Positions 1,690 through 62,649 of a stretch of DNA of 64,000 nucleotides are shown piece after piece. The DNA comes from Oscillospiraceae bacterium (GTDB lineage: Bacteria > Bacillota > Clostridia > Oscillospirales > UBA929). Within the stretch, counting starts at the first letter, position 1, and every line of letters begins with the position of its first letter. The DNA lies in the NCBI GenBank assembly GCA_009777255.1, contig WRMG01000001.1:5751-69750 (forward strand), in the 5' to 3' direction. The notes under the pieces are model-generated. The model had not been told where the DNA came from, made no database searches, and saw only the letters and a program-made list of their open reading frames with translations. The position numbers were made by a program, and so were the translations under genes.

Positions 1690-2982
<1,293 letters not shown>

Positions 2983-3032
2983 GGTACGTTTCCTTTCTGA
3001 TACGGTTGGAACCCCCCGCGGCGGAGGGCGCT

Positions 3033-51092: not shown

Positions 51093-52460
51093 CTATTTGT
51101 TCTTTGACAATTGATCATCAATCGCAATCGCCGCGGCCCGTCCCGCGCCCATCGCCAGTATAACCGTCGCCGCGCCGGTCACGGCGTCGCCTCCCGCGTA
51201 AACCATCGGGCGGTTAGTCCTGCCGTCTTCGGCGGCGGCGACACAGCCCCTGCGGTCAAAATCCAGATCGGGCGTCGAGTTTCTTATCAGCGCGTTCGGC
51301 GCCGAGCCGATCGCCATTATAACACAGTCCGCGTCCAGCGTAAACCCCGCGCCCTCTTTAACGACAGGGCGGCGCCGCCCGGAGGCGTCAGGCTCCCCCA
51401 GCTCCATCGCGTCGCAAACCACAGCCCTGACATTAAATTTTTCATCGCCCAGTATCTCCCTCGGGTTCGTCAGCACACGGAAATTGATGCCCTCCTCCCG
51501 GGCGTGATGTATCTCCTCACGGCGCGCGGGCATCTCCTCCATCCCGCGCCGATATACTATATCCACCGTCTCCGCGCCCAGCCGCAAAGCGCAGCGCGCC
51601 GCGTCCATCGCCACATTGCCGCCGCCGACCACAACAACCTTTTTCAAATCCTTTACCGGCGTGTCCGACCGCGCGTCATAGGCCTTCATGAGATTCACCC
51701 GCGTCAGAAACTCGTTGGCGGAGAATACCCCGTTCAGGTTCTCCCCGGGAATCCCCATAAACGACGGCAGCCCCGCGCCCGACCCGATAAACACCGCGTC
51801 ATACCCGTCGTCAAACAGATCGTCTATAGTCAGCGCCTGTCCGACGACTGCGTTTGTGATAATACTCACACCCAGCGCTTTCAGCTCCCCGACCTCGCGC
51901 CGCACTATCTCCTTTGGAAGCCTGAACTCGGGTATCCCATAAATCAGCACCCCGCCCGGCTCATGAAACGCCTCAAAGACCGTGACGTCATACCCCAGCC
52001 CCGCCAGCGTCCCCGCGCAGCTCAGCCCCGCCGGCCCCGACCCCACAACCGCAATCCTCTTCCCATTATCTGTTATCTGTCCTCTGTTATCTGTTATCTG
52101 CCCACCGTCTGCCGCATACCGCTCCAGCCTCCCAATGGCGACCGGCTCCCCCTTCACGGCCCGCACACACAGCCGCTCGCACTGATTCTCCTGCGGGCAG
52201 ACCCGCCCGCAGACCGCCGGAAGCGCGTTTGTCTCCTTTATAATAGCGGCGGCTTTGGCTATATCCCCGTTTTTAATCTCCGTAATAAACTCCGGTATCG
52301 CCACGCCGACCGGACACCCCGCCACACACGGTCGCTTTTTGCAGTTAAGGCAGCGCGACGCCTCGGCGGCGGCCTGCTCCGGCGTATAGCCCAGAGCGAC
52401 CTCGCCGAAATTATTGCGGCGCAGCTCGGGCGCCTGCTCCGGCATAGGAGTCTTCATCAT
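51093..52460 (-). CDS. nfnB: NfnB-type NADPH-dependent oxidoreductase (GltD-like; 2x[4Fe-4S] + FAD/NADPH)
   Basis: CLNCKKRPCVAGCPV and CGRVCPQENQCERLC clusters and VVGSGPAGL. It pairs with a PyrK-like subunit through a 4-nt overlap. Confidence 0.85.
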   Translation of the reverse strand: MMKTPMPEQAPELRRNNFGEVALGYTPEQAAAEASRCLNCKKRPCVAGCPVGVAIPEFITEIKNGDIAKAAAIIKETNALPAVCGRVCPQENQCERLCVRAVKGEPVAIGRLERYAADGGQITDNRGQITDNGKRIAVVGSGPAGLSCAGTLAGLGYDVTVFEAFHEPGGVLIYGIPEFRLPKEIVRREVGELKALGVSIITNAVVGQALTIDDLFDDGYDAVFIGSGAGLPSFMGIPGENLNGVFSANEFLTRVNLMKAYDARSDTPVKDLKKVVVVGGGNVAMDAARCALRLGAETVDIVYRRGMEEMPARREEIHHAREEGINFRVLTNPREILGDEKFNVRAVVCDAMELGEPDASGRRRPVVKEGAGFTLDADCVIMAIGSAPNALIRNSTPDLDFDRRGCVAAAEDGRTNRPMVYAGGDAVTGAATVILAMGAGRAAAIAIDDQLSKNK

Positions 52461-53335
52461 GCCGTCACCCCCTTAAACAGCCCGCAGCCATGCCGCGCGG
52501 TTTCCTCTTTTTCTCTGTAGGCGGCGCTCCGCCGTATGGCCTCGTCAAAATCAACCTCGTGGCCGTCGAAATCCGGCCCGTCCACACAGGCGAATTTCAC
52601 CGCTCCGCCGACCGTAACGCGGCATCCGCCGCACATGCCGGTGCCGTCTATCATAATCGGGTTCATGCTCACATATGTCCTGATATTAAACGGCTCTGTC
52701 ACAAGGCACACAAACTTCATCATAACCAGCGGCCCTATCGCCACGACCGCGTCGTAAGCGTTCCCCTCTTCTATCTGCCGTTTCAGCGCGTCGGTGACCA
52801 GCCCCTTATGCCCGTTAGAGCCGTCGTCGGTACAGATATGCAGCCGCGACGACACGGCGCGCATCTCGTCCTCAAGTATGATCAGCTCTTTATTTCGGAA
52901 TCCGCCGATGATATGCACCTCGGCGCCCTGCCTGTAAAGCTCCGCGGCCTGCGGATACGCGATGGCGCAGCCCAGCCCCCCGCCGACGACGCAGACCCTT
53001 TTAAGCCCCTCGAGATGCGACGGCTTGCCCAGCGGGCCGGTCAGATCCGTGACAGAATCGCCCTCGTTCAGCGCGGCAAGCAGCGCCGTCGATTTCCCGA
53101 CCGGCTGGAATATAACGGTTATCGTGCCGCTTTCGCGGTCATAGCCCGCTATGGTGAGCGGGAAGCGCTCCCCCCACTCACCCACTCGCAGCATGACAAA
53201 CTGCCCCGCTTGCGCGCGCCTCGCCGCCAGCGGCGCGCATATGGTCATACGTATGACCTGCGGGTTCAGATACTCCTTTGAAATGATAGTATAAATCTGG
53301 CTCAGCTCCCTCGTATTTTTCCGAACTATTGACAA
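52457..53335 (-). CDS. nfnA: NfnA-type ferredoxin-NADP+ reductase subunit (PyrK-like, [2Fe-2S])
   Basis: An FAD/NAD-binding fold and a C-terminal CGGCRV...CVDGP cluster. The start codon is uncertain: TTG 53335 has no RBS, and GAGGGAG lies downstream of it. Confidence 0.82.
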   Translation of the reverse strand: MSIVRKNTRELSQIYTIISKEYLNPQVIRMTICAPLAARRAQAGQFVMLRVGEWGERFPLTIAGYDRESGTITVIFQPVGKSTALLAALNEGDSVTDLTGPLGKPSHLEGLKRVCVVGGGLGCAIAYPQAAELYRQGAEVHIIGGFRNKELIILEDEMRAVSSRLHICTDDGSNGHKGLVTDALKRQIEEGNAYDAVVAIGPLVMMKFVCLVTEPFNIRTYVSMNPIMIDGTGMCGGCRVTVGGAVKFACVDGPDFDGHEVDFDEAIRRSAAYREKEETARHGCGLFKGVTA

Positions 53336-53365
53336 TATATCAGAAAATCAGGGACAAGTCAAGAT

Positions 53366-54310
53366 TCAATTGCCCGCCGCGCTCTCGTCGATCCGGCGCA
53401 CAACGCTGTGGGTATAGGCCGTGAAATATTTAAGCCAAAAGGCGGCCCCAGACGGATTAAAGCTCTCAAAGTCTGTGCCCAGACGGGTATACCCCTCACC
53501 CTTAAGCGCGGAAACGGCGAAATTCATCAGGTTTTGATAAACGCCCCTCCCCCGATGCTCCGGCATACAGAAAGCGCCGTTTATGTGTTTATATTTTTCG
53601 GTAACACCGGTAATAAAGGTTTCGCCGCAGTCCGATATTTGCATATACGCGCATAATTCGCCTTTATATCCCGCCCCGAAGAATCTCAGATTTCCCTCAG
53701 CGCACAAGCCCGCAAAGCTCTCGGGGGTATCCGGCGTCCGGTTCATAAAATACGGGCTTAAACACTGATACTCATTCAGCATTAAATGAAGCGGATACAC
53801 GGGCATACAGTCAGTCAGCTCGGCAAATTCATATCCCCCGCAGGGAGCGCAGTCTACCGGCTCCATCATCCGTATCGCGTCGATACAGCGCATCCCGAAC
53901 CCGTATCTGAAAAACCGCGCCTGCGTTTCCGTATCGTGGGCGTACAGGCATATGCCGTGGCTGGCCGCGCCGGCCTTCGCCCATTTCGCTCCCGCCGCCT
54001 GATACAGCGCGGCATAAATTTCCGCCCGGTTTTCGGGCAGCGCGCCGTTGGCGTGCATCGGCGAAAACACATTGCGCAGCCCCGCTATGTCCCACGCGTT
54101 GTCCCAGACGCCGTAAGCGCCCAAAAAGCCGATAACCCTTCCGTTTTCAACCGCCGCGGCGCCAAGCCCGTTCTCCGCGAGCGGCGTCAAATCCGGCCAC
54201 TTATCAACCGGAGGCAGCGCGGGGACATGCCCGCGCTCCTCCCCGTAATTTTGTTTCGCTATCAGCGCCGCCTGTTCAGCATGGGCGGCTGTAAAGTCAA
54301 CTACTTGCAT
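53366..54310 (-). CDS. Two-domain GNAT family N-acetyltransferase
   Basis: 314 aa. The C-terminal half has the acetyl-CoA motif HRGRGVYQNLMNFAV, and the N-terminal half is a second GNAT-like fold. Confidence 0.75.
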   Translation of the reverse strand: MQVVDFTAAHAEQAALIAKQNYGEERGHVPALPPVDKWPDLTPLAENGLGAAAVENGRVIGFLGAYGVWDNAWDIAGLRNVFSPMHANGALPENRAEIYAALYQAAGAKWAKAGAASHGICLYAHDTETQARFFRYGFGMRCIDAIRMMEPVDCAPCGGYEFAELTDCMPVYPLHLMLNEYQCLSPYFMNRTPDTPESFAGLCAEGNLRFFGAGYKGELCAYMQISDCGETFITGVTEKYKHINGAFCMPEHRGRGVYQNLMNFAVSALKGEGYTRLGTDFESFNPSGAAFWLKYFTAYTHSVVRRIDESAAGN

Positions 54311-54703
54311 TTATATATCATCCTTTCTTGTTTCCTCCAGTCGCTCCAGCGGGAAAGGCGGCAGCGCCAGCGGCTTGACGGCGATGGACATTAGCAGCGC
54401 GGGGTTGTCGTCCGCGGCTATCCGGTTCGCGCTCAGCGCGCCGCAGACCTTGCAGCGGTGTATGAGCGCCCATTCGCCGTTTCTGCGGACCCAGACGCCT
54501 ATCGGCTCCATGACCCCCTTGCAGAACGAGGCCCGGTCGCCGGGCTCGTCGTCTAAATGGATGCTGGACAGGCACTTGCTGCAATGGTTCCTGTGCGCCG
54601 TGCCGGCGTTATCGGGATGGTTAAGCGTCCCGCAGACCTTGCAGCTGAAGCTGTCAAGGCAGGCGGCGCTTTTATAATCCGTATATTTTCTGTATTTGCT
54701 CAT
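54311..54703 (-). CDS. RNHCP domain zinc-ribbon protein
   Basis: The literal motif AHRNHCSKC plus three further CxxC/C pairs. 130 aa. ATGA overlap with the upstream GTPase gene. Confidence 0.75.
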   Translation of the reverse strand: MSKYRKYTDYKSAACLDSFSCKVCGTLNHPDNAGTAHRNHCSKCLSSIHLDDEPGDRASFCKGVMEPIGVWVRRNGEWALIHRCKVCGALSANRIAADDNPALLMSIAVKPLALPPFPLERLEETRKDDI

Positions 54704-55770
54704 TCAAAATGTTTCTCTCCTTTTTTCATCTGTTTGCTCCGTATGGCGATAGATTTATTCCTCTCGCGTTTTAGCGTCATGTAATTCGCTCTGTCGTCCG
54801 CGTATCTGTTCTCCCGCTTCTGCGCGAGATAGCGCTCCCAGCGCCTGCGGGAGAGGGCGCCGTCCGTCAGCGCGGCAAGCACGGCGCAGCCCGGTTCGGA
54901 CTGATGGCCGCAGTCGCTGAAGCGGCAGCCGGAAAACAGCTCCTCCACATCGGCAAAGCCCGCGCTTATCCCCTCGTCCGCGTCGAACAGCCCCAGCTCG
55001 CGCATACCGGGCGTGTCAATGACCATCGCACCGCAGGGCAGCATGAACAGCTGGCGGTGGGTGGTGGTATGGCGGCCGCGGCCGTCGTCCTCGCGGATCG
55101 CTTTCACGGCCATGACCTCCCGCTCCATCAGCGCGTTGAGGAGCGACGACTTGCCGACGCCGGACATCCCGAGGAACACAGCGGTTTTGCCGGGTTGCAG
55201 GTATTCGTCAAGCGCGTCCAGCCCGAAGCCCGTATGCGCGGAAACCGCGTGGACGGGCACGTCCGGCGCGGCGCTTCGCACGGCGTTAAGCGCCGTCTCC
55301 GTATCCGCGGCCAGGTCCGCTTTTGTCAGGATCACCACGGGCAGCCCGCCGCTCTGCCATGCCTGCGTGAGATAGCGGATGATGCGGTTGACGTTGAAGT
55401 CCTGATTAAGCGACGACAGTATAAACACATAGTCGAAATTGGCGGCGACGAGCTGCTCGCGGTTGGCCTTGATATGCGCGAAGCCGTGGCCGGAAAAGTC
55501 AACGCGGGAAAATTTCGAGCGGCGCGGCAGCAGCCGGGTTATAAGCGACACGCCGCTTCCGCTGTATTGCAGCAGCACAAAGTCGCCGACGCAGGGCAGG
55601 TCGGCGCGGATCACCGCGTCGTATACAAACGCGCCCTTCAGCGCCGCCGTCACCTCGCCGTGTTCCGTGACGACGGTGTACTGCGGGCCGCGATGCTCCG
55701 TGACACGCCCGGGCAGCAAGCCCTCAATCAGCTCGGTTTCGGTGCAGCCATATAGTTTTAAGTCTGGCAT
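54700..55770 (-). CDS. rsgA: RsgA/YjeQ-type circularly permuted ribosome small-subunit GTPase (paralog-like, C-terminal basic extension)
   Basis: An OB N-terminus, LTKADL (G4), GMSGVGKSSLLNAL (G1), DTPGMRE (G3), and a zinc knuckle CRFSDCGHQSEPGCAV. Confidence 0.85.
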   Translation of the reverse strand: MPDLKLYGCTETELIEGLLPGRVTEHRGPQYTVVTEHGEVTAALKGAFVYDAVIRADLPCVGDFVLLQYSGSGVSLITRLLPRRSKFSRVDFSGHGFAHIKANREQLVAANFDYVFILSSLNQDFNVNRIIRYLTQAWQSGGLPVVILTKADLAADTETALNAVRSAAPDVPVHAVSAHTGFGLDALDEYLQPGKTAVFLGMSGVGKSSLLNALMEREVMAVKAIREDDGRGRHTTTHRQLFMLPCGAMVIDTPGMRELGLFDADEGISAGFADVEELFSGCRFSDCGHQSEPGCAVLAALTDGALSRRRWERYLAQKRENRYADDRANYMTLKRERNKSIAIRSKQMKKGEKHFE

Positions 55771-56762
55771 AAATCCTCCGTATTGTTATTTTTTATCTCA
55801 TAGATTTTTTGCAGGGTGTCCAGCTGAAGTTTTTTGCTCTCCGGCGTTCCGGCGAACTTGTACCATTCGACGAGCCTGTACCCGTAGTGCAGTATCATCC
55901 GCTCAAGGATGTACAGGTCTTTAATACGGGACACGTCCGCGTGTTCCGAAAAGCCTCTGTAATACGCGCGGACACATTTCGGGTAATATTCCGCCATATG
56001 CTCCACATCCGCCTCGTCCGCGAGCAGGCTGACAATATCCTCGCCCATATGGCCCCAGCCGGTTGTGTCCCAGTCGATAAGGCGGATGCCGCCGTCTGTG
56101 TAAAAGATATTCGTCACCCAGAAATCCCTGTGGCACAGCACTATGGGCAGCTCCTCAACGCGGCGCCATGTTTCGTCGGCGTTTTCGTCGGCCCCGATCA
56201 GCATTTCGCGCAGATGCGGGGGTATTTCACAGTCACAGGAGCGTATATAACCGTACACCTCGTCCCACGACCTGTAATACAGGTAGAAATTTTTCATGCC
56301 GTCGGCCTTGCTCAGGTTTTCTATCTCCCCCGGCGCGCCGCCGGCATACAGCCTGCCCTGAAACCGCCCCAGCTCCAGCGCCGCCCGTTCGTACATCTCA
56401 CCTGTCAGGCTGAGGCCCGACACGCCGTTGATATATTCCATCCACAGCCGTATTTCGCCCTCGCCGTACTCCGCGTGATAGCACTCTGGCCAGCGGAGCG
56501 CATCGGTGAACAGAGCGCCCAAGCCGGACATATAAAGGTCGTATTCCCTGCGCCACGATTCGGGGTCGCCGTAACGCTCCCACTTTTTCTGGGTTTTGCT
56601 TACCAGCTTGAACGGCAGCCGTTCGCCGTCATCGCTCACAGCCTCGCCCTCCAACAGACGGACGTCGCCCAGCGTGCCTCCGTGCAGCCGTTCGGTTTTA
56701 TATTCGGCGTTTATTATCGGTTTTTTCAGCATTACGCCGAGCGCTTTTAACAGTGCTTCCAT
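55758..56762 (-). CDS. Aminoglycoside-phosphotransferase/choline-kinase fold kinase-like protein
   Basis: HRDFWVTNIFY (HxDxxxxN) and IDWD motifs. I chose the ATG at 56762, 5 nt after GGAGAGGA. The in-frame upstream extension has no RBS. Confidence 0.7.
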   Translation of the reverse strand: MEALLKALGVMLKKPIINAEYKTERLHGGTLGDVRLLEGEAVSDDGERLPFKLVSKTQKKWERYGDPESWRREYDLYMSGLGALFTDALRWPECYHAEYGEGEIRLWMEYINGVSGLSLTGEMYERAALELGRFQGRLYAGGAPGEIENLSKADGMKNFYLYYRSWDEVYGYIRSCDCEIPPHLREMLIGADENADETWRRVEELPIVLCHRDFWVTNIFYTDGGIRLIDWDTTGWGHMGEDIVSLLADEADVEHMAEYYPKCVRAYYRGFSEHADVSRIKDLYILERMILHYGYRLVEWYKFAGTPESKKLQLDTLQKIYEIKNNNTEDLCQT

Positions 56763-56996
56763 AATTATCCTCTCCGTTTCGTTATATTTTCGGGCGCAAA
56801 AATACCGCGGTACAAACAGCCTTTTCTCAGACTGCCGCACGCGGTCGCGGTATTCACGAAAGGTTGCTTTACGCGGCGCACAAAGCATAAAGGGATCGGC
56901 TCCCTTTTTCACACCGTACGCGCCCTATATTCGGTTTAAGTCAGAACCACCACTGATAATACCGACACAAAAACAACTCCTTTCGTAATGTAATAT
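56763..56996 (-). promoter_or_regulatory. Long 5' leader with 10-codon mini-ORF and hairpins (candidate attenuator)
   Basis: Mini-ORF GTG 56968 to TAA 56936 (M-S-V-L-S-V-V-V-L-T), 8 nt after AAAGGAG. Hairpin aaaggga/tcccttt at 56889-56907. A 9-bp stem aauaccgcg/cgcgguauu at 56801-56854 is followed by a U-run. Confidence 0.4.
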
Positions 56997-57002
56997 GGGG
57001 GT

Positions 57003-57031
57003 ATTATAGCAGGATAAAAACGAAATGTCAA
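57003..57031 (-). promoter_or_regulatory. Consensus sigma-A promoter with extended -10 for the kinase-rsgA-RNHCP-GNAT operon
   Basis: On the minus strand: TTGACA (57031-57026), a 17-nt spacer, then TGcTATAAT (-10 at 57008-57003). Confidence 0.7.
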
Positions 57032-57065
57032 GGGGTAAAATTGCACGGCGATTTAGTTTTGTGTG

Positions 57066-57146
57066 TGTAGGGGTCGCACACCGGGCGACCCGTCGGGCGA
57101 CGGTGTAGCGCGGGTTTTGCGGGACGCCCAGTGTGCGTCCCCTACA
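57066..57146. repeat. REPIN-like inverted pair of REP-type hairpins with GTAG/CTAC tails
   Basis: Left unit tGTAG-gggtcgc-acaccgg-gcgaccc (57066-57091). Right unit gggacgc-ccagtgt-gcgtccc-CTACa (57121-57146). The two are reverse complements of each other apart from a few substitutions. Confidence 0.8.
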
Positions 57147-57222
57147 GGCGGTTTCACAATTAAATTACAGCAGGCATAATCTTCTCATTAAAAAGCCATG
57201 CTAAACGGCGGAGGGGTGTTCT

Positions 57223-59097
57223 GTGAAAAGATTTTGCATATTGTTTTTTATATTGATTATATTGTCGGGCTGCGCGGACAGGCATCCCGCCGGTCAGCGC
57301 GCGGGCACACTCCCCGTCCCCGCCGCAGAAAGTGACGCCGCGCCGGAGCAAAGCACGAGTGCAAAGGAAAGTACCTTTACACTCATGTGGTATGTCAACG
57401 GCTCGGATTTGGAGTCCGGCGGCGGCGAGGACTACGGCGGCGCGTTTTCACGCAATCTGCGGGAGGTGCTGTCATATCTGCCGGCGGACGACAGGGTTAC
57501 GGTCGTCATCTTCTCGGGCGGCACGTCAAAATGGGAGACGGCCGGTTTTGAGGCGGATATAAATCAGGTGCATTTCGTGACCGAGGACGGGCTGGCGCAC
57601 GGCGAGCGGCTGCCGGAGGGCAGCATTGCCGACCCTGATACGCTGGCCGGTTTTGTCGATTACGTGATGAAGGCGCGGCCCGCCGACCGCTATGGGCTGG
57701 TGTTCTGGGACCATGGGAGCAGCGTGCCCATCGGCTTCGGGCTGGACGAGCTGCGCGAGCCGAGGTCCATCAACGCCCGGGATATAGCGCGCGGGCTGGA
57801 GGCGGGGCTGGGCGGTGAAAAGCTGGCCTTTATCGGGTTTGACACTTGCCTGATGGCGACGGCGGAGACCGCCGCGCTGTGCGCGCCGCACGCCGGTTAT
57901 ATGATCGCATCGGAGGAGCTGGAGCCCAACGCGGGCTGGAATTACGCGCCGCTGATGCGGGCGCTGACGCGCGACCCGTCCGTTGATACCCTGAGGCTGT
58001 GCAGGATTGTCGCCGACGCTTATTACAGCGCGAGTCTCGAGCTTAACCCCGAGGAGCTTATCACTGTCTCCGTGACCGATCTTGCAAAGATAGATGCCGT
58101 AGTCAGCGCCACCGAGGCGTTCGCGCTGGCCGCCAAGAGCGACCTTGACGCGGGCGGGTTCGCCGGTATCTCGAAAAGGCGCGCAACCGTGAAGGATTTC
58201 GGCGGCGTGAACGAGAGCGCCGATATGGTTGATCTGGTACATCTCGCCCAGCGCTTCTCGCCGAAATATCCCAAGGAGTCGAAGGCGCTTATCGCCGCCG
58301 TTAAGAGCTGCGTGGCGTATAACCGCCGCTCGCGGACCTCGCCGAACTCCAACGGGCTGAGCGTATATTTCCCGTATGAGAACGAGCCGGTTATGGACGG
58401 GTATCTGGACGTCTATCTCGCCATGGGCTTTACGGAGGCTTATATCGGGCTTATCAGGAGCTTTTCAGCGGAGCTGAGGGCCGGCGACGCCGATACGAAG
58501 AGGACGGAGATACCGGTTGAAGCGGCGGCCGGCGGATATAAAATAAGCGTGCCCGACGGTATAACCTCGCTGCGGGCGGCGCTGCTGGGCAGGGAGTCCG
58601 GCGACGCGTATTATATTTTCAGCTATGTGCCCGGCGCGGCGCTTAACGGCAAAACGGGTTCGGCCGCGCTGCCGGAGAGCTGGCTGACGCTGAACGGCGT
58701 TTTGGTGTGCGCGTATACCGAGAGCGCGGACGAACGGCATGTGCTGTACTCCGTGCCCGTGCTGGTAAACGGCCGCGATATGAACCTGATGTACGCGCGC
58801 GATGGGGCGGCGCTCTATGAGATCGGCGCGACGCCCGACGGCGATGAGGACACGCCCGCGCTGCCCGGCTTTCTGCCGATAAATGCCGGCGACGCCGTTA
58901 CGCCGAAATATCCGCGGGTGAGCCTCAGCTCGGGGCGCGAGGAGGACGGGTATTACCTCGGGGAGACGGTTGGTGTGACGGACGGCGGGCTTGCGCCCGA
59001 ATTTTCCGCGCTGCCCGGGGGCGAATATTATTTCGCGTTTTGCCTGACCGATATTTACGACAACCATTTCTGGTCGGAGGTTATACAAATAACATAG
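57223..59097 (+). CDS. Clostripain-related (C11 family) cysteine peptidase lipoprotein
   Basis: Lipobox ILSGC, His in VFWDHGSS and Cys in GFDTCLMA. GTG start 6 nt after GGAGGGG. Confidence 0.85.
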   Translation: MKRFCILFFILIILSGCADRHPAGQRAGTLPVPAAESDAAPEQSTSAKESTFTLMWYVNGSDLESGGGEDYGGAFSRNLREVLSYLPADDRVTVVIFSGGTSKWETAGFEADINQVHFVTEDGLAHGERLPEGSIADPDTLAGFVDYVMKARPADRYGLVFWDHGSSVPIGFGLDELREPRSINARDIARGLEAGLGGEKLAFIGFDTCLMATAETAALCAPHAGYMIASEELEPNAGWNYAPLMRALTRDPSVDTLRLCRIVADAYYSASLELNPEELITVSVTDLAKIDAVVSATEAFALAAKSDLDAGGFAGISKRRATVKDFGGVNESADMVDLVHLAQRFSPKYPKESKALIAAVKSCVAYNRRSRTSPNSNGLSVYFPYENEPVMDGYLDVYLAMGFTEAYIGLIRSFSAELRAGDADTKRTEIPVEAAAGGYKISVPDGITSLRAALLGRESGDAYYIFSYVPGAALNGKTGSAALPESWLTLNGVLVCAYTESADERHVLYSVPVLVNGRDMNLMYARDGAALYEIGATPDGDEDTPALPGFLPINAGDAVTPKYPRVSLSSGREEDGYYLGETVGVTDGGLAPEFSALPGGEYYFAFCLTDIYDNHFWSEVIQIT

Positions 59098-59135
59098 GGG
59101 CGGCTATTGATCGCCCGCATGGGGAGATAGAATTT

Positions 59136-60569
59136 ATGGCGGCTGTTAACGAAACGCGCAAAATGCTCGAGCAAGCGTTTAACTATCCGGTCAACAAGGA
59201 TATTGTGTTCCGCGATTTTAAGTACGCGGGCAAAGACTGCTTTGTCCTCTATATCGACGGCATGGCAAGCGGCGATAAGATCAGCGATTTTATTCTGCGC
59301 CCGCTCACCCGCTCGCCCGGCGGCGGCAGCGTGATGAACGTATTACAGGTGTGCGGCGTAAAGGCCGAGACGGAGCTTGAAAAGGCTGTCGCCGCCGTGT
59401 TGCAGGGCGACGCCGCCGTCTGCGCGGACGACGCGGTGTATATCTGCGAGACAAAGGGGTTTGACAAGCGCGGGGTTGAGAAGCCGACGGTGGAGAACTC
59501 GATTGTTGGCTCTCAGGAGGCCTTTAACGAGTCGCTGCGCACGAATACCACGCTGCTGCACCGCATCATCAAAAACGCGGCGCTGACCACGGAGACGCTC
59601 ACGCTGGGCAGGCTCAACAACCTCGTCTGCGGCGTTATATACGTAAACGGCATAGCGGACATGGGGCTGGTCGCGGAGGTAAAGCGGCGCCTCGGCGGCG
59701 TCGAGACGGATTTTTTGCAGAGCGGCGGCATGGTCGAGCAGTTTATTGAGGATCAGGCGTCGTCGCTGTTCCAGACCGTGACGACGACCGAGCGCCCCGA
59801 CAACGCCGCCGCGCTGCTGATGCAGGGCCGGGTCGGCATTATCGTTGACGGCAGCCCGCGCGTGATAGTCGCGCCGGTCACGCTGTTCACGCTCCTGAAA
59901 ACCAGCGAGGAGAGCGCTATGCGCGCGCCGCTGGCGTCCTCGATCAGGGCAGTGCGTATTCTGGCCGTGTTCGCGGCGCTGCTGATGCCGGCGCTGTATC
60001 TGGCGGCGACGACGTTCCACGCGGAGATGATACCCGCCGCGCTGCTGCTCAATCTCGCCGGGGCGCGGCTGAATATCCCGTATCCCGCGATGGTGGAGCT
60101 GCTGCTGATGGAGATCTCCTTCGAGCTGATACGCGAGGCCGGACAGCGTATCCCCGGGCCGATCGGCGGCACCGTCGGGATCGTCGGCGGGCTTATTCTG
60201 GGCGAGGCGGCGGTGTCCGCCGGGCTGGTCAGCCAGGGCTGCGTGGTGATAATCGCGTTTTCGGGGCTGGGCAGCTTTGCCATACCGCAGTATCAGCTGA
60301 CGTTCACCGTCAGGCTTTTGCGGCTGATTTTCCTGATATGCGCCGGGCTGATGGGGTTTTTGGGCGTGGGCGCCGCGTTTGTCATTCTGGTCGGGTATGT
60401 AAACTCCCTGACCTCGTTCGGCACGGATTACGTCAGCCCCGTGTTCTCGGACGCGCCGGTTTTCCCAAAGCGTCCCGTCTGGGAGTATGAGATGCGGCCG
60501 CCGGAGCTGAACGCCGCGCGGCCCGAGTATCAGCCGGGAATATCGCGCAAATGGAGAGAGGGCCGATGA
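59136..60569 (+). CDS. Spore germination protein, GerA-family A subunit
   Basis: DIVFRDF...GMA...ESLRTNTTLLHRII pattern and a C-terminal TM bundle. ATG 59136 lies after GGGGAG. Confidence 0.9.
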   Translation: MAAVNETRKMLEQAFNYPVNKDIVFRDFKYAGKDCFVLYIDGMASGDKISDFILRPLTRSPGGGSVMNVLQVCGVKAETELEKAVAAVLQGDAAVCADDAVYICETKGFDKRGVEKPTVENSIVGSQEAFNESLRTNTTLLHRIIKNAALTTETLTLGRLNNLVCGVIYVNGIADMGLVAEVKRRLGGVETDFLQSGGMVEQFIEDQASSLFQTVTTTERPDNAAALLMQGRVGIIVDGSPRVIVAPVTLFTLLKTSEESAMRAPLASSIRAVRILAVFAALLMPALYLAATTFHAEMIPAALLLNLAGARLNIPYPAMVELLLMEISFELIREAGQRIPGPIGGTVGIVGGLILGEAAVSAGLVSQGCVVIIAFSGLGSFAIPQYQLTFTVRLLRLIFLICAGLMGFLGVGAAFVILVGYVNSLTSFGTDYVSPVFSDAPVFPKRPVWEYEMRPPELNAARPEYQPGISRKWREGR

Positions 60570-61597
60570 AGACGCTTAGGATTTACGACGGCGCAGCCGC
60601 CGCGTGCCTTTTGATCCTGCCGCCGCTGCTTTACGCGGGGCTAGGCGATCTGACCGCCGCTTACGGGACCGCGGCGTGGCTTGTGCTGCTCGTCGCGGCG
60701 GCCGCGGCGCTGTGCCTGTTTCTGATAACGGCGTTTCTTACACGGGGGAATATAAAGCTCCTTGACGCGGCGGCGGCCGTGTGCGGCAGGCCGTTCGCCG
60801 TACTGTACGGGTTTGTTCTGTGCGTATATTTTTCTTACCACACCGGCGTGTACGCGCGGGAGAGCGCCGCCGTGTTAAAGGCATACGGCTTTAATAAGAC
60901 GCCCTTTTATGTCATCGCGGGGATTATTTTGCTGGCCGCGCTTGTCATGAACCTGTTCGGCGGGCGGGCCGTTATAAAGAGCGCGGGGTTTTTCTTTATC
61001 GCGCTGCTGGCCGGTATCGCGCTGGTCATTCTGCTGGGCCTTAACAGATACGAGCCGGCCTATCTCTTCCCCGTGTCCCTGAACGGGATAGACCCTCTTG
61101 AGGGGTTATATAAGGCGTCGTTTTTCAGCGGCGCGGTGCTATTGGCGCTGTTCAGCTTCGGCGATGGCCGCGCGCTCAGGCGCTCGGGGGTTATCTCTGT
61201 CCTGACGGCGGGCGGGGTTTCGGCGCTGCTGTGCGTGTGCTATGTCATGATGTTCTCGCGCGGCGCCGGCGCGGCGATGACCTGCGGCTTTATCGAGATG
61301 GGACAGTCGAGCTACTTCAACCACTTCTTCTACCGCTTTGAGGCGCCGCTGCTGCTCTTTGTCATTTTCGCCGCCGTTATGCAGGCGTCGCTCGGGCTGC
61401 TGATCGCCAAGGAGAGCCTTGTAAGCGTCTTTAAGCGCTGTTCACACAGAGGCGTCGTCTGCGCGGCGGCGGCTGCTGCGTCGGCAGCGGCGCTGGTTCT
61501 GCCGGACGCGCCCGTTAAGAGATACGGGGTTTTTATCGTCGCGGCGCCGCCGGTTTTTCTGTTTATAATAAGCTGTGTAAAGAGGATTTTCAAATGA
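60566..61597 (+). CDS. Spore germination protein, GerAB-type permease (B subunit)
   Basis: About 10 TM helices, positioned between the A and C subunits. ATG 60566 lies after GGAGAGAGGG and overlaps the A-subunit gene. Confidence 0.8.
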   Translation: MKTLRIYDGAAAACLLILPPLLYAGLGDLTAAYGTAAWLVLLVAAAAALCLFLITAFLTRGNIKLLDAAAAVCGRPFAVLYGFVLCVYFSYHTGVYARESAAVLKAYGFNKTPFYVIAGIILLAALVMNLFGGRAVIKSAGFFFIALLAGIALVILLGLNRYEPAYLFPVSLNGIDPLEGLYKASFFSGAVLLALFSFGDGRALRRSGVISVLTAGGVSALLCVCYVMMFSRGAGAAMTCGFIEMGQSSYFNHFFYRFEAPLLLFVIFAAVMQASLGLLIAKESLVSVFKRCSHRGVVCAAAAAASAAALVLPDAPVKRYGVFIVAAPPVFLFIISCVKRIFK

Positions 61598-62649
61598 GGT
61601 TTTTTAAGTTTTTGGGCGTTATAATCTGTATCGCCGCGCTCTGCTCGGGGTGCTGGGACAAGCGCGAGCTGGAGGATAACGTGTTCGCGGTGCTGCTGGG
61701 GCTGGATATATCCGAGGATAAAGGCGTGACGGTCACGGTCGCCTATCCGCAGACCCAGCCGGGCGGTCAGGACGGAGAGCAGGCGGATTACGCCGTCATG
61801 TCCGCAAAGGCAAACTCCTTTACAGACGGGCTGGAGATGCTGAGGGCGGAGCTGGCCGGGCCGCTGGCGCTCCACTCGGTGAAGACTGTCGTAATATCGC
61901 AGGAGTTTGCCGTGAGGGGCGGGATAAGCCGCGCGCTCTCCGAGCTGCGCCGCGCCCAGGTGAAGAACACCGCGAATATAATGGTCTCCGCCGGCGCGGC
62001 GAGCGATTTTATCAGCGCCCGCGTGAAGGAGCCTGACGTTCTCAGGCGGGAGGAGCTGCTGCTTGAGCGGGCGAACGGCGGCGTGTTTTACAGGCCGCTG
62101 ATGCTGCTGGACCTTATGATAAATATAATGTCCGCGGACAGCGCCGCGATGTACGCGGTATCGGAGAGTGAGGACGGCGCGGATGATGAGGGGGACGGGA
62201 AAGCCGCTGAAGCGTCCGCCATGGCTGAAAGCTCCGGCAAAAAGGGGGAGCCCGATATGCCCGTGAAGTCGGACGGCAAGACCCGAATATGCGGGCTGGC
62301 GGTGTTCAGGGGGGACAAAATGGTCGGCACGCTTAATTCCTCAGAGGCGCGGATTTTTATCATGCTGACCGGAAGCAAGGCTAAAATTAAGAGCCGGATT
62401 GAGGACGGCAGGCCCGTATTCGATATTACTCTGCTGAGCGACGCCGAAAACGCACCGTCTCTCAGCGATACGCGGGATTTTATTGAGAAAATCCAAGGGG
62501 AATACGGCGCGGATATACTGAAGCTCGGCAACAGGCTGCGCGTCAGGAACCAGAAGGTTAACTGGCGGGAGAAATATGGGGAGGCGGAGATCAATGTATC
62601 CATAAAAATAATCGCGGTTCCACATCACAAATCGCCGCAAACCACATAA
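61594..62649 (+). CDS. Ger(x)C family germination lipoprotein (C subunit)
   Basis: Lipobox LCSGCWDKRELEDN is the typical GerAC start. 4-nt overlap with the B-subunit gene. Confidence 0.88.
   Translation: MRFFKFLGVIICIAALCSGCWDKRELEDNVFAVLLGLDISEDKGVTVTVAYPQTQPGGQDGEQADYAVMSAKANSFTDGLEMLRAELAGPLALHSVKTVVISQEFAVRGGISRALSELRRAQVKNTANIMVSAGAASDFISARVKEPDVLRREELLLERANGGVFYRPLMLLDLMINIMSADSAAMYAVSESEDGADDEGDGKAAEASAMAESSGKKGEPDMPVKSDGKTRICGLAVFRGDKMVGTLNSSEARIFIMLTGSKAKIKSRIEDGRPVFDITLLSDAENAPSLSDTRDFIEKIQGEYGADILKLGNRLRVRNQKVNWREKYGEAEINVSIKIIAVPHHKSPQTT

What the first reader, a model, noticed from the sequence alone, without database searches (positions are those of the whole stretch)
56763..57031. 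Consensus promoter plus ~235-nt leader with a 10-codon mini-ORF and terminator-like hairpin upstream of the kinase-rsgA operon
On the minus strand a perfect TTGACA-17-TGcTATAAT promoter is followed by AAAGGAG, an 8-nt spacer, and GUG UCG GUA UUA UCA GUG GUG GUU CUG ACU UAA (M-S-V-L-S-V-V-V-L-T). Next come a 7-bp hairpin (56889-56907) and a 9-bp stem AAUACCGCG/CGCGGUAUU (56801-56854) that closes a partly self-pairing interior and is followed by UUU. Only then do the operon RBS and ATG (56762) appear. A short, well-initiated leader peptide upstream of a terminator-like structure is the architecture of ribosome-stalling attenuators, which switch on resistance genes against ribosome-targeting antibiotics. 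That fits the ribosome-related content of the operon.
Basis: partly seen in the sequence, partly recalled or inferred. Interest (0 to 1): 0.6.

Follow-up and report, generated by a model that had tools for sequence, protein, structure and literature searches.

The report
Conserved uORF leader controlling RsgA-kinase operon
The 235-nt leader is one copy of a widespread, apparently undescribed family of Firmicute mRNA leaders that pair a tiny translated ORF with terminator hairpins and sit in front of an extra RsgA ribosome GTPase and antibiotic-modifying-type enzymes, so it most likely lets the cell sense trouble at the ribosome.

Summary
That covers the 12/12 promoter, the Shine-Dalgarno (SD) site with its 8-nt spacer, the 10-codon GUG mini-ORF, both hairpins, the U-tract, and the downstream RBS and ATG.

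It is not a chance arrangement. Homologous leaders occur in at least 155 loci from Oscillospiraceae, Lachnospiraceae, Paenibacillaceae and Bacillaceae genomes and from metagenomes. They always sit in front of the first gene of the operon, whatever that gene is. The first gene is usually an accessory RsgA paralog; otherwise it is an APH-type kinase, GNAT, SAM methyltransferase, ABC ATPase or RNHCP protein.

The mini-ORF is kept in 153 of 155 leaders, at 9-13 codons. An invariant GGUG lies 9 nt before the stop.

New anatomy:
- The mini-ORF's SD pairs with a conserved anti-SD (AACCUUUCG).
- A covarying P2/P3 hairpin follows the stop codon.
- Most leaders carry two tandem terminators; the window has one.
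- A covarying antiterminator strand is present.
- The apex of the first terminator mimics an SD.

Best model: ribosome-dependent transcription attenuation that reads ribosome occupancy of the mini-ORF start site. The polarity and the inducer are inferred, not shown. Rfam and the searched literature contain no such element.

The parts
57003..57031 (-). Sigma-70-type promoter: -35 TTGACA (57031-57026), 17-nt spacer, extended -10 TGcTATAAT (57011-57003). Inferred transcription start near A 56996.
   Evidence: 12/12 match with TG; the only such site in 52-60 kb. Relatives carry a promoter-like site at the same relative position. The transcription start is inferred, not mapped.
56977..56984 (-). 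SD1 (GAAAGGAG), the Shine-Dalgarno of the mini-ORF and the 5' strand of helix P1.
   Evidence: Conserved as GAA[AG]GG[AG]G, 6-13 nt upstream of the mini-ORF start, in relatives.
56936..56968 (-). Mini-ORF (uORF): GUG UCG GUA UUA UCA GUG GUG GUU CUG ACU UAA, reading MSVLSVVVLT*.
   Evidence: A uORF of 9-13 codons is present in 153/155 related leaders. That includes 117/119 leaders found with a pattern that does not constrain the ORF. Length changes are in whole codons.
56948..56951 (-). Invariant GGUG: third base of codon -5 plus the Val codon at -4. It lies 9 nt before the stop and is complementary to CACC in the 16S 3' tail.
   Evidence: Entropy is 0-0.47 bits at these four positions. Codon -5 is always NNG although its amino acid varies (M/L/E/K/W/R). 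Codon -4 is GUG in 128/138 leaders.
56917..56924 (-). P2 5' strand (GGCGCGUA), beginning 11 nt after the stop codon.
   Evidence: fold. The hairpin is conserved in nearly all relatives. Covariation: swap test diff -2.07 kcal/mol, p<3e-4; 5 of 6 pairs carry compensatory changes.
56889..56907 (-). P3 hairpin (AAAGGGA-GCCGA-UCCCUUU) followed by a U-rich stretch.
   Evidence: Relatives carry a hairpin of different sequence at the same place.
56875..56882 (-). P2 3' strand (UGUGCGCC).
56850..56870 (-). Anti-SD block AAAGC-AACCUUUCG-UGAAUAC, the 3' strand of P1. It pairs with SD1 and its spacer (56970-56986).
   Evidence: P1 is in the MFE. This is the best-conserved block in blastn/nhmmer against relatives. 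It is the single occurrence in the window. L046 carries natural compensatory variants, CAAAAGG/CCUUUUG and GCGUUU/AAACGC.
56835..56850 (-). Weak alternative hairpin CCGCG-ACCGCG-UGCGG (-6.5 kcal/mol) that uses part of the terminator's 5' arm. It occupies the position of the family's antiterminator strand.
   Evidence: In relatives this strand covaries with the terminator's 5' arm (diff -1.87 kcal/mol, p<5e-4).
56797..56845 (-). Intrinsic terminator T2: 5' arm 56845-56830, loop UGAGAAAAG 56829-56821 (SD-like AAAAGG), 3' arm 56820-56804, U-tract AUUUUUG 56803-56797.
   Evidence: -22.8 kcal/mol, z -4.56, 0/200 shuffles. The arms covary in relatives (diff -8.5 kcal/mol).
56760..56775 (-). SD2 GGAGAGG (56775-56769) and the ATG (56762-56760) of the first operon gene.
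   Evidence: Homologue lengths and alignment from residue 1-3.
53366..56762 (-). Regulated operon: APH-family kinase (55758-56762), RsgA paralog (54700-55770), RNHCP-domain protein (54311-54703), GNAT acetyltransferase (53366-54310). Starts and stops overlap or abut.
   Evidence: The RsgA paralog matches solved RsgA structures at 5e-43.

Best explanation
The region is the promoter plus a ~235-nt cis-regulatory leader. It belongs to a conserved Firmicute family that works by ribosome-dependent transcription attenuation.

Shown:
- a strongly initiated 9-13-codon uORF;
- a conserved anti-SD (AACCUUUCG) about 110 nt downstream that can pair with the uORF's own SD and spacer (helix P1);
- a covarying hairpin (P2/P3) that starts 10-13 nt after the uORF stop;
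- one intrinsic terminator in the window, usually two in relatives;
- a strand that covaries with the last terminator's 5' arm (an antiterminator);
- an SD-like sequence at the apex of the first terminator.

Inferred mechanism:
- When translation is healthy, the uORF initiation region clears between ribosomes. P1 snaps shut as soon as the anti-SD is transcribed, the terminator forms, and transcription stops before the operon.
- When a ribosome is held on the initiation region, P1 cannot form. The ribosome may be arrested in the first codons, or queued behind a ribosome arrested further along this one-footprint-long ORF.
- The free anti-SD strand then pairs with the SD-like apex and 5' arm of the nascent terminator, and RNA polymerase reads through into the RsgA, kinase, RNHCP and GNAT genes.

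The likely physiological signal is translation arrest by a ribosome-targeting compound, probably one directed at the 30S subunit. The compound is unknown.
For: Conservation and linkage:
- Leader homologues were found by nhmmer upstream of the first gene of the operon in 36 of 80 loci, although gene order differs.

uORF:
- Kept in 153/155 leaders.
- 9-11 sense codons in 94/100 non-redundant leaders.
- The Acetoanaerobium variant L201 keeps the uORF and its UUG-GUG-GUU motif but has a different downstream platform.

Structure:
- P1 is in the window's MFE.
- L046 carries compensatory P1 variants.
- P2 covaries.
- Terminator arms covary.
- The antiterminator strand covaries with the T2 5' arm.
- The first terminator's apex is complementary to the anti-SD: -5.64 vs -4.15 kcal/mol for shuffles, 57/66 leaders, p 3e-10.

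Switch modelling:
- Masking SD1 to AUG+15 in nascent transcripts raises sequestration of the first terminator's 5' arm from 0.49 to 0.60 (47 leaders up, 8 down; p 2e-8).
- A ribosome only at the stop codon has no effect.
- The new pairing partner is the anti-SD strand.
- In the window, terminator probability falls from 0.88 to 0.50 when the initiation region is masked.

Cargo: RsgA paralog in at least 72 loci. Elsewhere there are several kinds of APH kinase, GNATs, SAM methyltransferases and ABC ATPases.
Against: - There is no transcript or induction data.
- At equilibrium the terminators form whatever is masked, except in the window.
- The gain in 5'-arm sequestration on masking is only slightly larger than with shuffled terminator arms (0.116 vs 0.079, p 0.06). 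Much of that effect is therefore generic.
- For the second terminator the model points the other way: antiterminator probability falls from 0.52 to 0.44 when the initiation region is masked.
- P1 pairs were fixed by my metagenome search pattern. Their support rests on the kinase-selected loci and a few compensatory variants.
- The role of the invariant GGUG is unexplained.
- Resistance function has not been shown for any cargo gene.
Confidence: 0.6

Rival explanations
1. Same element, opposite polarity: a sensor of failed initiation or of a shortage of competent 30S subunits. If no ribosome engages SD1, P1 forms. That leaves the strand after GAAUA free to pair with the T2 5' arm as an antiterminator, and the operon is switched on. 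Busy initiation keeps it off. This would be a homeostatic control for a 30S-maturation GTPase.
For: - The antiterminator:T2 helix covaries. Its modelled probability is higher in the ribosome-free state (0.52) than with the initiation region masked (0.44; 22 leaders down, 5 up; p 6e-5).
- In many leaders the segment before the anti-SD resembles the T2 5' arm and can pair with the antiterminator strand.
- RsgA acts on 30S maturation (established knowledge).
Against: - The linking hairpin is weak (mean -2.6 kcal/mol) and is not significantly supported (p 0.06 and 0.11).
- For the first terminator the model points the other way.
- This model does not explain the conserved uORF length, stop codon or GGUG.
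- Cargo such as kinases, GNATs and ABC ATPases fits drug response better than 30S homeostasis.
Confidence: 0.17
2. A riboswitch-like or protein-binding structured leader. The P1-P2-P3 domain with its conserved junction nucleotides binds a small molecule or a protein, for example the RsgA paralog itself through rRNA mimicry. The uORF is secondary.
For: - Junction sequences are conserved (AAC[CU]GAAUA, GUAAACAGUA, GUGAAUAC) around covarying helices.
- The uORF shows no 3-nt periodicity of variation and its peptide is poorly conserved.
- RsgA is in most of these operons.
Against: - SD, start, stop and length of the uORF are kept in 153/155 leaders.
- L201 keeps the uORF and GGUG but lacks the P1/anti-SD domain.
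- Some leaders control operons without RsgA.
- There is no Rfam match even at E<=10.
Confidence: 0.1
3. The hairpin plus U-tract is only a leaky or constitutive terminator, or an mRNA-stability element. The mini-ORF is fortuitous or encodes a peptide that acts in trans.
For: - The whole-leader fold is only z -2.0.
- Short ORFs are common by chance.
Against: Family-wide conservation of the uORF, anti-SD, covarying helices and position before the first gene.
Confidence: 0.03

Closest known systems
Ribosome-mediated transcription attenuators of Firmicute resistance genes: B. subtilis bmrB-bmrCD (PMC4191407), vmlR leader (PMC9226507), yxjB/tlrB leader (PMC6851288), Listeria hflXr leader (PMC6310831), mef/msrD leaders (PMC4335068, PMC10314930)
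   Same: A short translated leader ORF lies upstream of an intrinsic terminator with alternative pairings. It precedes genes that counter ribosome-targeting drugs. HflXr is also an accessory paralog of a housekeeping ribosome GTPase.
   Different: - No sequence or Rfam relationship.
- The uORF's own SD is sequestered by a conserved anti-SD.
- The terminator apex mimics an SD.
- Tandem terminators are the norm.
- An invariant GGUG lies 9 nt before the stop.
- The cargo (RsgA paralog, this APH-family kinase, RNHCP) has no reported resistance role in the searched literature.
- The inducer is unknown.
erm/cat-type leader peptides (ermC, ermB; PMC8274638)
   Same: A leader peptide of about 10 codons, rich in V/I/L, whose translation state controls a downstream resistance gene.
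   Different: - Those act mainly by translational attenuation, unmasking the SD of the resistance gene.
- Their arrest depends on a defined peptide motif.
- Here the peptide is variable apart from one Val.
- SD2 lies outside the terminator.
- Control appears to be transcriptional.
General translation-stress uORF sensors: the actinobacterial whiB7/wblC leader (regulon in PMC7157823) and E. coli toiL-topAI (both from my own knowledge)
   Same: A uORF whose ribosome occupancy reports many kinds of translation inhibition. The controlled genes include GNATs and ribosome-associated factors.
   Different: Different phyla, sequences and terminator logic. The resemblance is recalled from memory and was not tested here.
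prfB and dnaX recoding sites (internal SD-like element close to a stop or slippery codon; from my own knowledge)
   Same: An SD-like element inside an ORF at a fixed short distance from the decisive codon, with a hairpin just downstream.
   Different: There is no slippery sequence. There is no frame conservation beyond the stop (36/28/36). Recoding is therefore not supported.

Membership tests
Ribosome-dependent (leader-ORF) transcription attenuator | Short ORF with a functional-looking SD and start in the 5' leader, conserved as an ORF | tested here: met
   153/155 leaders, in-frame length variation, SD 6-13 nt upstream.
Ribosome-dependent (leader-ORF) transcription attenuator | Intrinsic terminator between the leader ORF and the regulated gene | tested here: met
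   (window T2, z -4.56). (at least one terminator-like hairpin in 143/145 leaders, two in 88). Arms covary.
Ribosome-dependent (leader-ORF) transcription attenuator | Mutually exclusive pairings that link ribosome position to terminator formation | tested here: inconclusive
   P1 overlaps the initiation region. The antiterminator strand covaries. The anti-SD is complementary to the terminator apex. Masking models agree for the first terminator, but specificity over shuffled arms is marginal and the second terminator behaves oppositely.
Ribosome-dependent (leader-ORF) transcription attenuator | Premature termination relieved by ribosome arrest or antibiotic | not testable with these tools
Translational attenuation (ermC type) | SD of the regulated gene sequestered in the alternative hairpin | tested here: not met
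   SD2 (56775-69) lies 22 nt beyond the U-tract. In the MFE it is outside the terminator, with only weak local pairing.
Amino-acid biosynthesis leader peptides (trp/his/leu type) | Run of codons for the regulating amino acid in the leader ORF | tested here: not met
   There is no conserved codon run. Only one Val codon is invariant. The cargo is not biosynthetic.
Any curated RNA family (riboswitch, T-box, r-protein leader) in Rfam 15 | Match to a covariance model | tested here: not met
   No hit at gathering score in the window. Only chance-level hits (miRNA and plant-virus models) at E<=10 in 56500-57400.
Anti-phage defence system | Operon proteins match PADLOC models | tested here: not met
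   only P-loop-level hits (E about 1e-3) for RsgA and none for the other three proteins.
RsgA (small-subunit biogenesis GTPase) family, for the cargo gene | RsgA_GTPase domain and TIGR00157 above cutoff | tested here: met
   It is below the cutoffs of the PRK12288/12289 equivalogs, and the best PDB match is proteobacterial-type RsgA. That is consistent with an accessory paralog.

The most novel reading that the evidence does not exclude
The leader defines a new, widespread class of translation-stress sensor that reads occupancy of a ribosome-binding site. One anti-SD strand chooses between the uORF's SD and an SD-mimicking terminator apex. Its main cargo, the accessory RsgA paralog together with an APH-type kinase, GNAT and RNHCP protein, would be a previously unrecognised inducible resistance or target-protection module against 30S-directed antibiotics. 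RsgA would then be to the decoding centre what HflXr and ABC-F proteins are to the 50S subunit.
Probability: 0.3. Interest if true: 0.85.

Novelty: new variant of a known kind. Interest (0 to 1): 0.68.

Why it matters
If the model holds, this is a new family of antibiotic- or translation-stress-responsive riboregulators, and it is common. The family is present in cultured Paenibacillus, Lysinibacillus, Bacillus-group and Lachnospiraceae species.

The family points to cargo genes that nobody has linked to resistance: an accessory RsgA GTPase, a highly conserved APH-family kinase (58-68% identity between Clostridia and Bacilli) and the RNHCP domain of unknown function.

It also offers a directly testable design in which an anti-SD competes between a uORF's SD and a terminator. 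Finally, it provides a sequence signature for mining inducible resistance-like operons in gut and soil metagenomes.

Tried and rejected
- **Rfam.** Searches at gathering score and at E<=10 found nothing relevant.
- **Stop-codon readthrough or recoding sensor.** Rejected. The frame between the uORF stop and the anti-SD is random (36/28/36) and there is no conserved second stop.
- **Local hairpin P4 as the link between P1 and the antiterminator.** In P4 the segment before the anti-SD would pair with the antiterminator strand. It is weak (mean -2.6 kcal/mol) and not significant.
- **Direct pairing of the uORF body with the antiterminator strand, T1 arms or T2 arms.** No covariation.
- **Equilibrium masking of ribosome footprints on full-length leaders.** Uninformative, because the terminators are too stable.
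- **Weak signals left unexplained.** P2 5' strand with the segment after the U-tract (p 0.001). 5' flank with the T2 5' arm (p 3e-4). Post-stop segment with the antiterminator strand (p 5e-4). Effect sizes are about 0.6 kcal/mol or less and the test ignores phylogeny.
- **GGUG pairing partner inside the leader.** None found by inspection; RNAalifold offered only a 2-bp contact.
- **PADLOC defence models.** No meaningful match.
- **Solved structures.** None close for the kinase or the GNAT.
- **Literature.** Searches for RNHCP, RsgA with resistance/uORF/attenuation, and RsgA paralog/target protection found nothing on this element.
- **Second copy in the window.** No other copy of the leader.

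Full report
**1. Checking the observation**

- Promoter: TTGACA (57031-57026), 17 nt, then TGcTATAAT (57011-57003). This is the only 12/12 promoter match with an upstream TG in 52-60 kb.
- GAAAGGAG (56984-56977), followed by an 8-nt spacer.
- Mini-ORF: GUG UCG GUA UUA UCA GUG GUG GUU CUG ACU UAA (56968-56936).
- The 7-bp hairpin at 56907-56889 (also listed).
- The stem AAUACCGCG/CGCGGUAUU (56854-46 / 56809-01), followed by U's.
- GGAGAGG (56775-69) and the ATG at 56762.

The terminator hairpin is far more stable than shuffles: -22.8 kcal/mol, z -4.56, 0 of 200 shuffles. The whole leader is only modestly so (z -2.0).

ATG 56762 is the true start of the first gene, not the in-frame GTG at 56912. 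Homologues are 330-340 aa and align from residue 1-3.

**2. The operon**

Four minus-strand genes follow, and their ends overlap or abut.

- An APH/EcKL-family kinase, 55758-56762.
- An RsgA GTPase, 54700-55770. It passes TIGR00157 but is below the cutoffs of the equivalog models. Its best solved relative is proteobacterial-type RsgA at 5e-43.
- An RNHCP-domain protein, 54311-54703.
- A GNAT acetyltransferase, 53366-54310.

The kinase and the GNAT have no close solved structure. None of the four proteins matches PADLOC defence models meaningfully.

The surroundings look like the chromosome of a spore-forming Firmicute. They include a GerA germination operon, rpiB, a PucR-type regulator and oxidoreductases.

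**3. The leader is a conserved family that travels with the operon**

The kinase has about 1000 relatives at 58-68% identity across Oscillospiraceae, Lachnospiraceae, Paenibacillus, Lysinibacillus and Bacillus-group genera.

In 80 genomic loci fetched through the kinase alone, gene order is shuffled. The common order is rsgA then kinase. L001 has RNHCP-rsgA-GNAT-kinase. Some loci have the kinase alone.

Even so, nhmmer and blastn with the window leader hit 36 of these loci at E<0.01. Wherever the position could be checked, the hit lies upstream of whichever gene comes first in the operon. The conserved blocks are:

- the SD plus mini-ORF;
- a block AACCUUUCGUGAAUAC;
- the 3' arm of the terminator.

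A metagenome scan used a pattern that fixes only the SD-like block and the AACCTTTC block at 95-125 nt spacing.

Downstream of these leaders, the RsgA paralog appears in at least 72 loci. Elsewhere the first gene is this kinase, other APH-family kinases, SAM methyltransferases, GNATs or ABC ATPases. Many remaining loci are cut by contig ends.

Rfam 15 has no matching family. Five literature searches found nothing on this leader or on an RsgA paralog linked to resistance.

**4. The mini-ORF**

The scan pattern did not constrain the ORF, yet 117 of 119 metagenome leaders have one. Across all sources, 153 of 155 leaders have an ORF of 9-13 codons starting 6-13 nt after the SD.

Among 100 non-redundant leaders, 94 have 9-11 sense codons. 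Length differences are whole codons; for example L079 versus L049, and L053. The stop is UAA in 127 of 138 leaders.

The peptide is otherwise variable and the variation shows no 3-nt periodicity.

One feature is invariant. The third base of codon -5 is always G, whatever the amino acid (M, L, E, K, W, R). Codon -4 is Val, and it is GUG in 128 of 138 leaders. Codon -3 is RYY.

This gives GGUG(R-U-Y) ending 9 nt before the stop. By my own reading, this is the complement of the GAUCACC stretch of the 16S 3' tail. Its spacing would place the last sense codon in the P site. I found no partner for it inside the leader.

The Acetoanaerobium noterae locus L201 has an RsgA paralog at 58% identity. It keeps an SD, a 12-codon uORF and the same UUG-GUG-GUU motif, followed only by a simple hairpin and the RsgA SD. 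The uORF therefore looks like the core of the device.

**5. RNA anatomy**

- **P1.** The uORF's SD and spacer (56970-56986) pair with the anti-SD block (56856-56870). This helix is in the window's MFE. Its pairs were fixed by my scan pattern, so independent support comes from the kinase-selected loci. L046 has CAAAAGG/CCUUUUG and GCGUUU/AAACGC in place of CGAAAGG/CCUUUCG and UUGUUUU/AAAGCAA.
- **P2/P3.** A hairpin starts 10-13 nt after the stop in almost every leader. The sequences differ widely. It shows clear covariation: own versus swapped strands differ by -2.07 kcal/mol, p<3e-4, and 5 of 6 RNAalifold pairs carry compensatory changes.
- **Expression platform.** 88 of 145 leaders have two hairpin-plus-U-tract units, T1 and T2. 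The window has only T2. Both sets of arms covary strongly.
- **Antiterminator strand.** The strand just after GAAUA covaries with the T2 5' arm (-1.87 kcal/mol, 0 of 2000 permutations). One subclass has ACUGCUGUU:AACAGCAG and another has CUGUAAAC:GUUUGCAG.
- **SD-like terminator apex.** The apex of the first terminator carries an SD-like RGGU that is complementary to the anti-SD. The observed energy is -5.64 versus -4.15 kcal/mol for shuffles, in 57 of 66 leaders, p 3e-10, over 50 distinct apex sequences. In the window, the T2 loop (GAGAAAAGG) plays this part.

**6. How it probably works**

I modelled nascent transcripts that end at the terminator's apical loop.

- Blocking the uORF initiation region (SD1 to AUG+15) raises the chance that the first terminator's 5' arm is captured by upstream RNA from 0.49 to 0.60. 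Of 100 leaders, 47 go up and 8 go down (p 2e-8).
- A ribosome only at the stop codon changes nothing.
- A two-ribosome queue behaves like the initiation block.
- The extra pairing partner is the anti-SD strand.
- In the window, the full-length terminator's probability falls from 0.88 to 0.50 under the same mask.

This fits a three-way switch:

- P1 is the anti-antiterminator.
- The anti-SD paired with the terminator apex or 5' arm is the antiterminator.
- T is the terminator.

A ribosome held on the initiation region would then turn the operon on. An ORF that is one ribosome footprint long means that an arrest anywhere in it keeps the initiation region covered, either directly or through a queued second ribosome.

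**Caveats**

- The masking effect is only marginally larger than with shuffled terminator arms (0.116 vs 0.079, p 0.06).
- At equilibrium, masking has no general effect.
- The antiterminator of the second terminator is slightly less likely when the initiation region is masked. That result is what the opposite-polarity rival predicts.
- No transcript data could be obtained.

I therefore hold the general claim, a translated-uORF transcription attenuator, with high confidence. The polarity and the drug signal I hold with moderate confidence.

**7. Rejected or unsupported ideas**

- A stop-codon readthrough or recoding sensor: there is no frame conservation.
- A local hairpin linking P1 to the antiterminator: weak.
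- Pairing of the uORF body with terminator arms: no covariation.
- A defence system.
- Any known RNA family.

**8. Comparison and novelty**

In kind, this is a ribosome-dependent attenuator like those of bmrCD, vmlR, yxjB, hflXr and msrD (papers listed). The closest biological parallel is HflXr, another accessory paralog of a ribosome GTPase under a leader.

It differs in five ways:

- its own SD is sequestered by an anti-SD;
- the terminator apex mimics an SD;
- it usually has tandem terminators;
- it has the invariant GGUG;
- its cargo is different.

I class it as a new variant of a known kind. It is absent from Rfam and from the searched literature.

Noticed in passing
window 57067-57145 (between the leader promoter and the divergent peptidase gene at 57223): A 78-nt imperfect inverted repeat, GTAGGGGTCGCACACCGGGCGACCCG ... 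CGGGACGCCCAGTGTGCGTCCCCTAC, with 26-nt arms that differ at 3 positions. The fold z-score is -5.1. There is no other copy in the window. It could be an operator, a bidirectional terminator or a small mobile or REP-like element.
   Followed up: partly
L001-L080 (for example L001 1164-4484, L002 2413-4469) compared with window 53366-56762: The RsgA paralog, APH-type kinase, RNHCP and GNAT genes co-occur in different orders and subsets in different genomes, and the leader stays in front of whichever gene is first. The kinase is 58-68% identical between Clostridia and Bacilli, which suggests horizontal spread as a module.
   Followed up: partly
L201 about 2870-3005 (Acetoanaerobium noterae, NZ_CP154629.1): A minimal variant of the leader. 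It has an SD and a 12-codon uORF (MKKFTNNLVVFV*) with the same UUG-GUG-GUU motif. A simple hairpin follows, then directly the RsgA SD. There is no anti-SD block and no U-tract.
   Followed up: partly
L200 1913-2374 (Roseburia plasmid) and L202 2334-2495 (Listeria monocytogenes second rsgA next to pnp): More distant long-type RsgA genes (43-46% identity) are also preceded by unrelated short ORFs (about 22 and 19 codons) with SD sites. In Roseburia a terminator-like hairpin follows. uORF leaders may be a general theme for accessory RsgA genes.
   Followed up: no
Relatives, about 30-45 nt upstream of SD1; absent in the window: Most family members have a small hairpin at the predicted 5' end of the transcript, between the promoter and SD1, and a T1 terminator with a strongly conserved sequence (GGGAUACGAU-NNNG-GUCGUAUCCC). 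The window copy lacks both and is a compact version of the leader.
   Followed up: partly
window 56785-56800 versus 56917-56925, and the same places in relatives: The segment just after the terminator U-tract (UUUUUGCGCCC in the window, UUUUUAUGCCC in Paenibacillus) resembles the P2 3' strand and is complementary to the P2 5' strand. The weak covariation signal (p 0.001) hints at a long-range pairing in read-through transcripts.
   Followed up: partly
window 53334-53362 (minus strand): A second good promoter-like site, TTGACT-17-TATATT with TG, lies directly after the GNAT gene and in front of the oxidoreductase pair 52457-53335 / 51093-52460. It marks the likely 3' limit of the regulated operon.
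   Followed up: no
window 59040-62649 (plus strand): A complete GerA-type spore germination receptor operon (GerA, spore permease, GerAC domains). The window therefore comes from a spore-forming Firmicute with about 60% G+C.
   Followed up: yes
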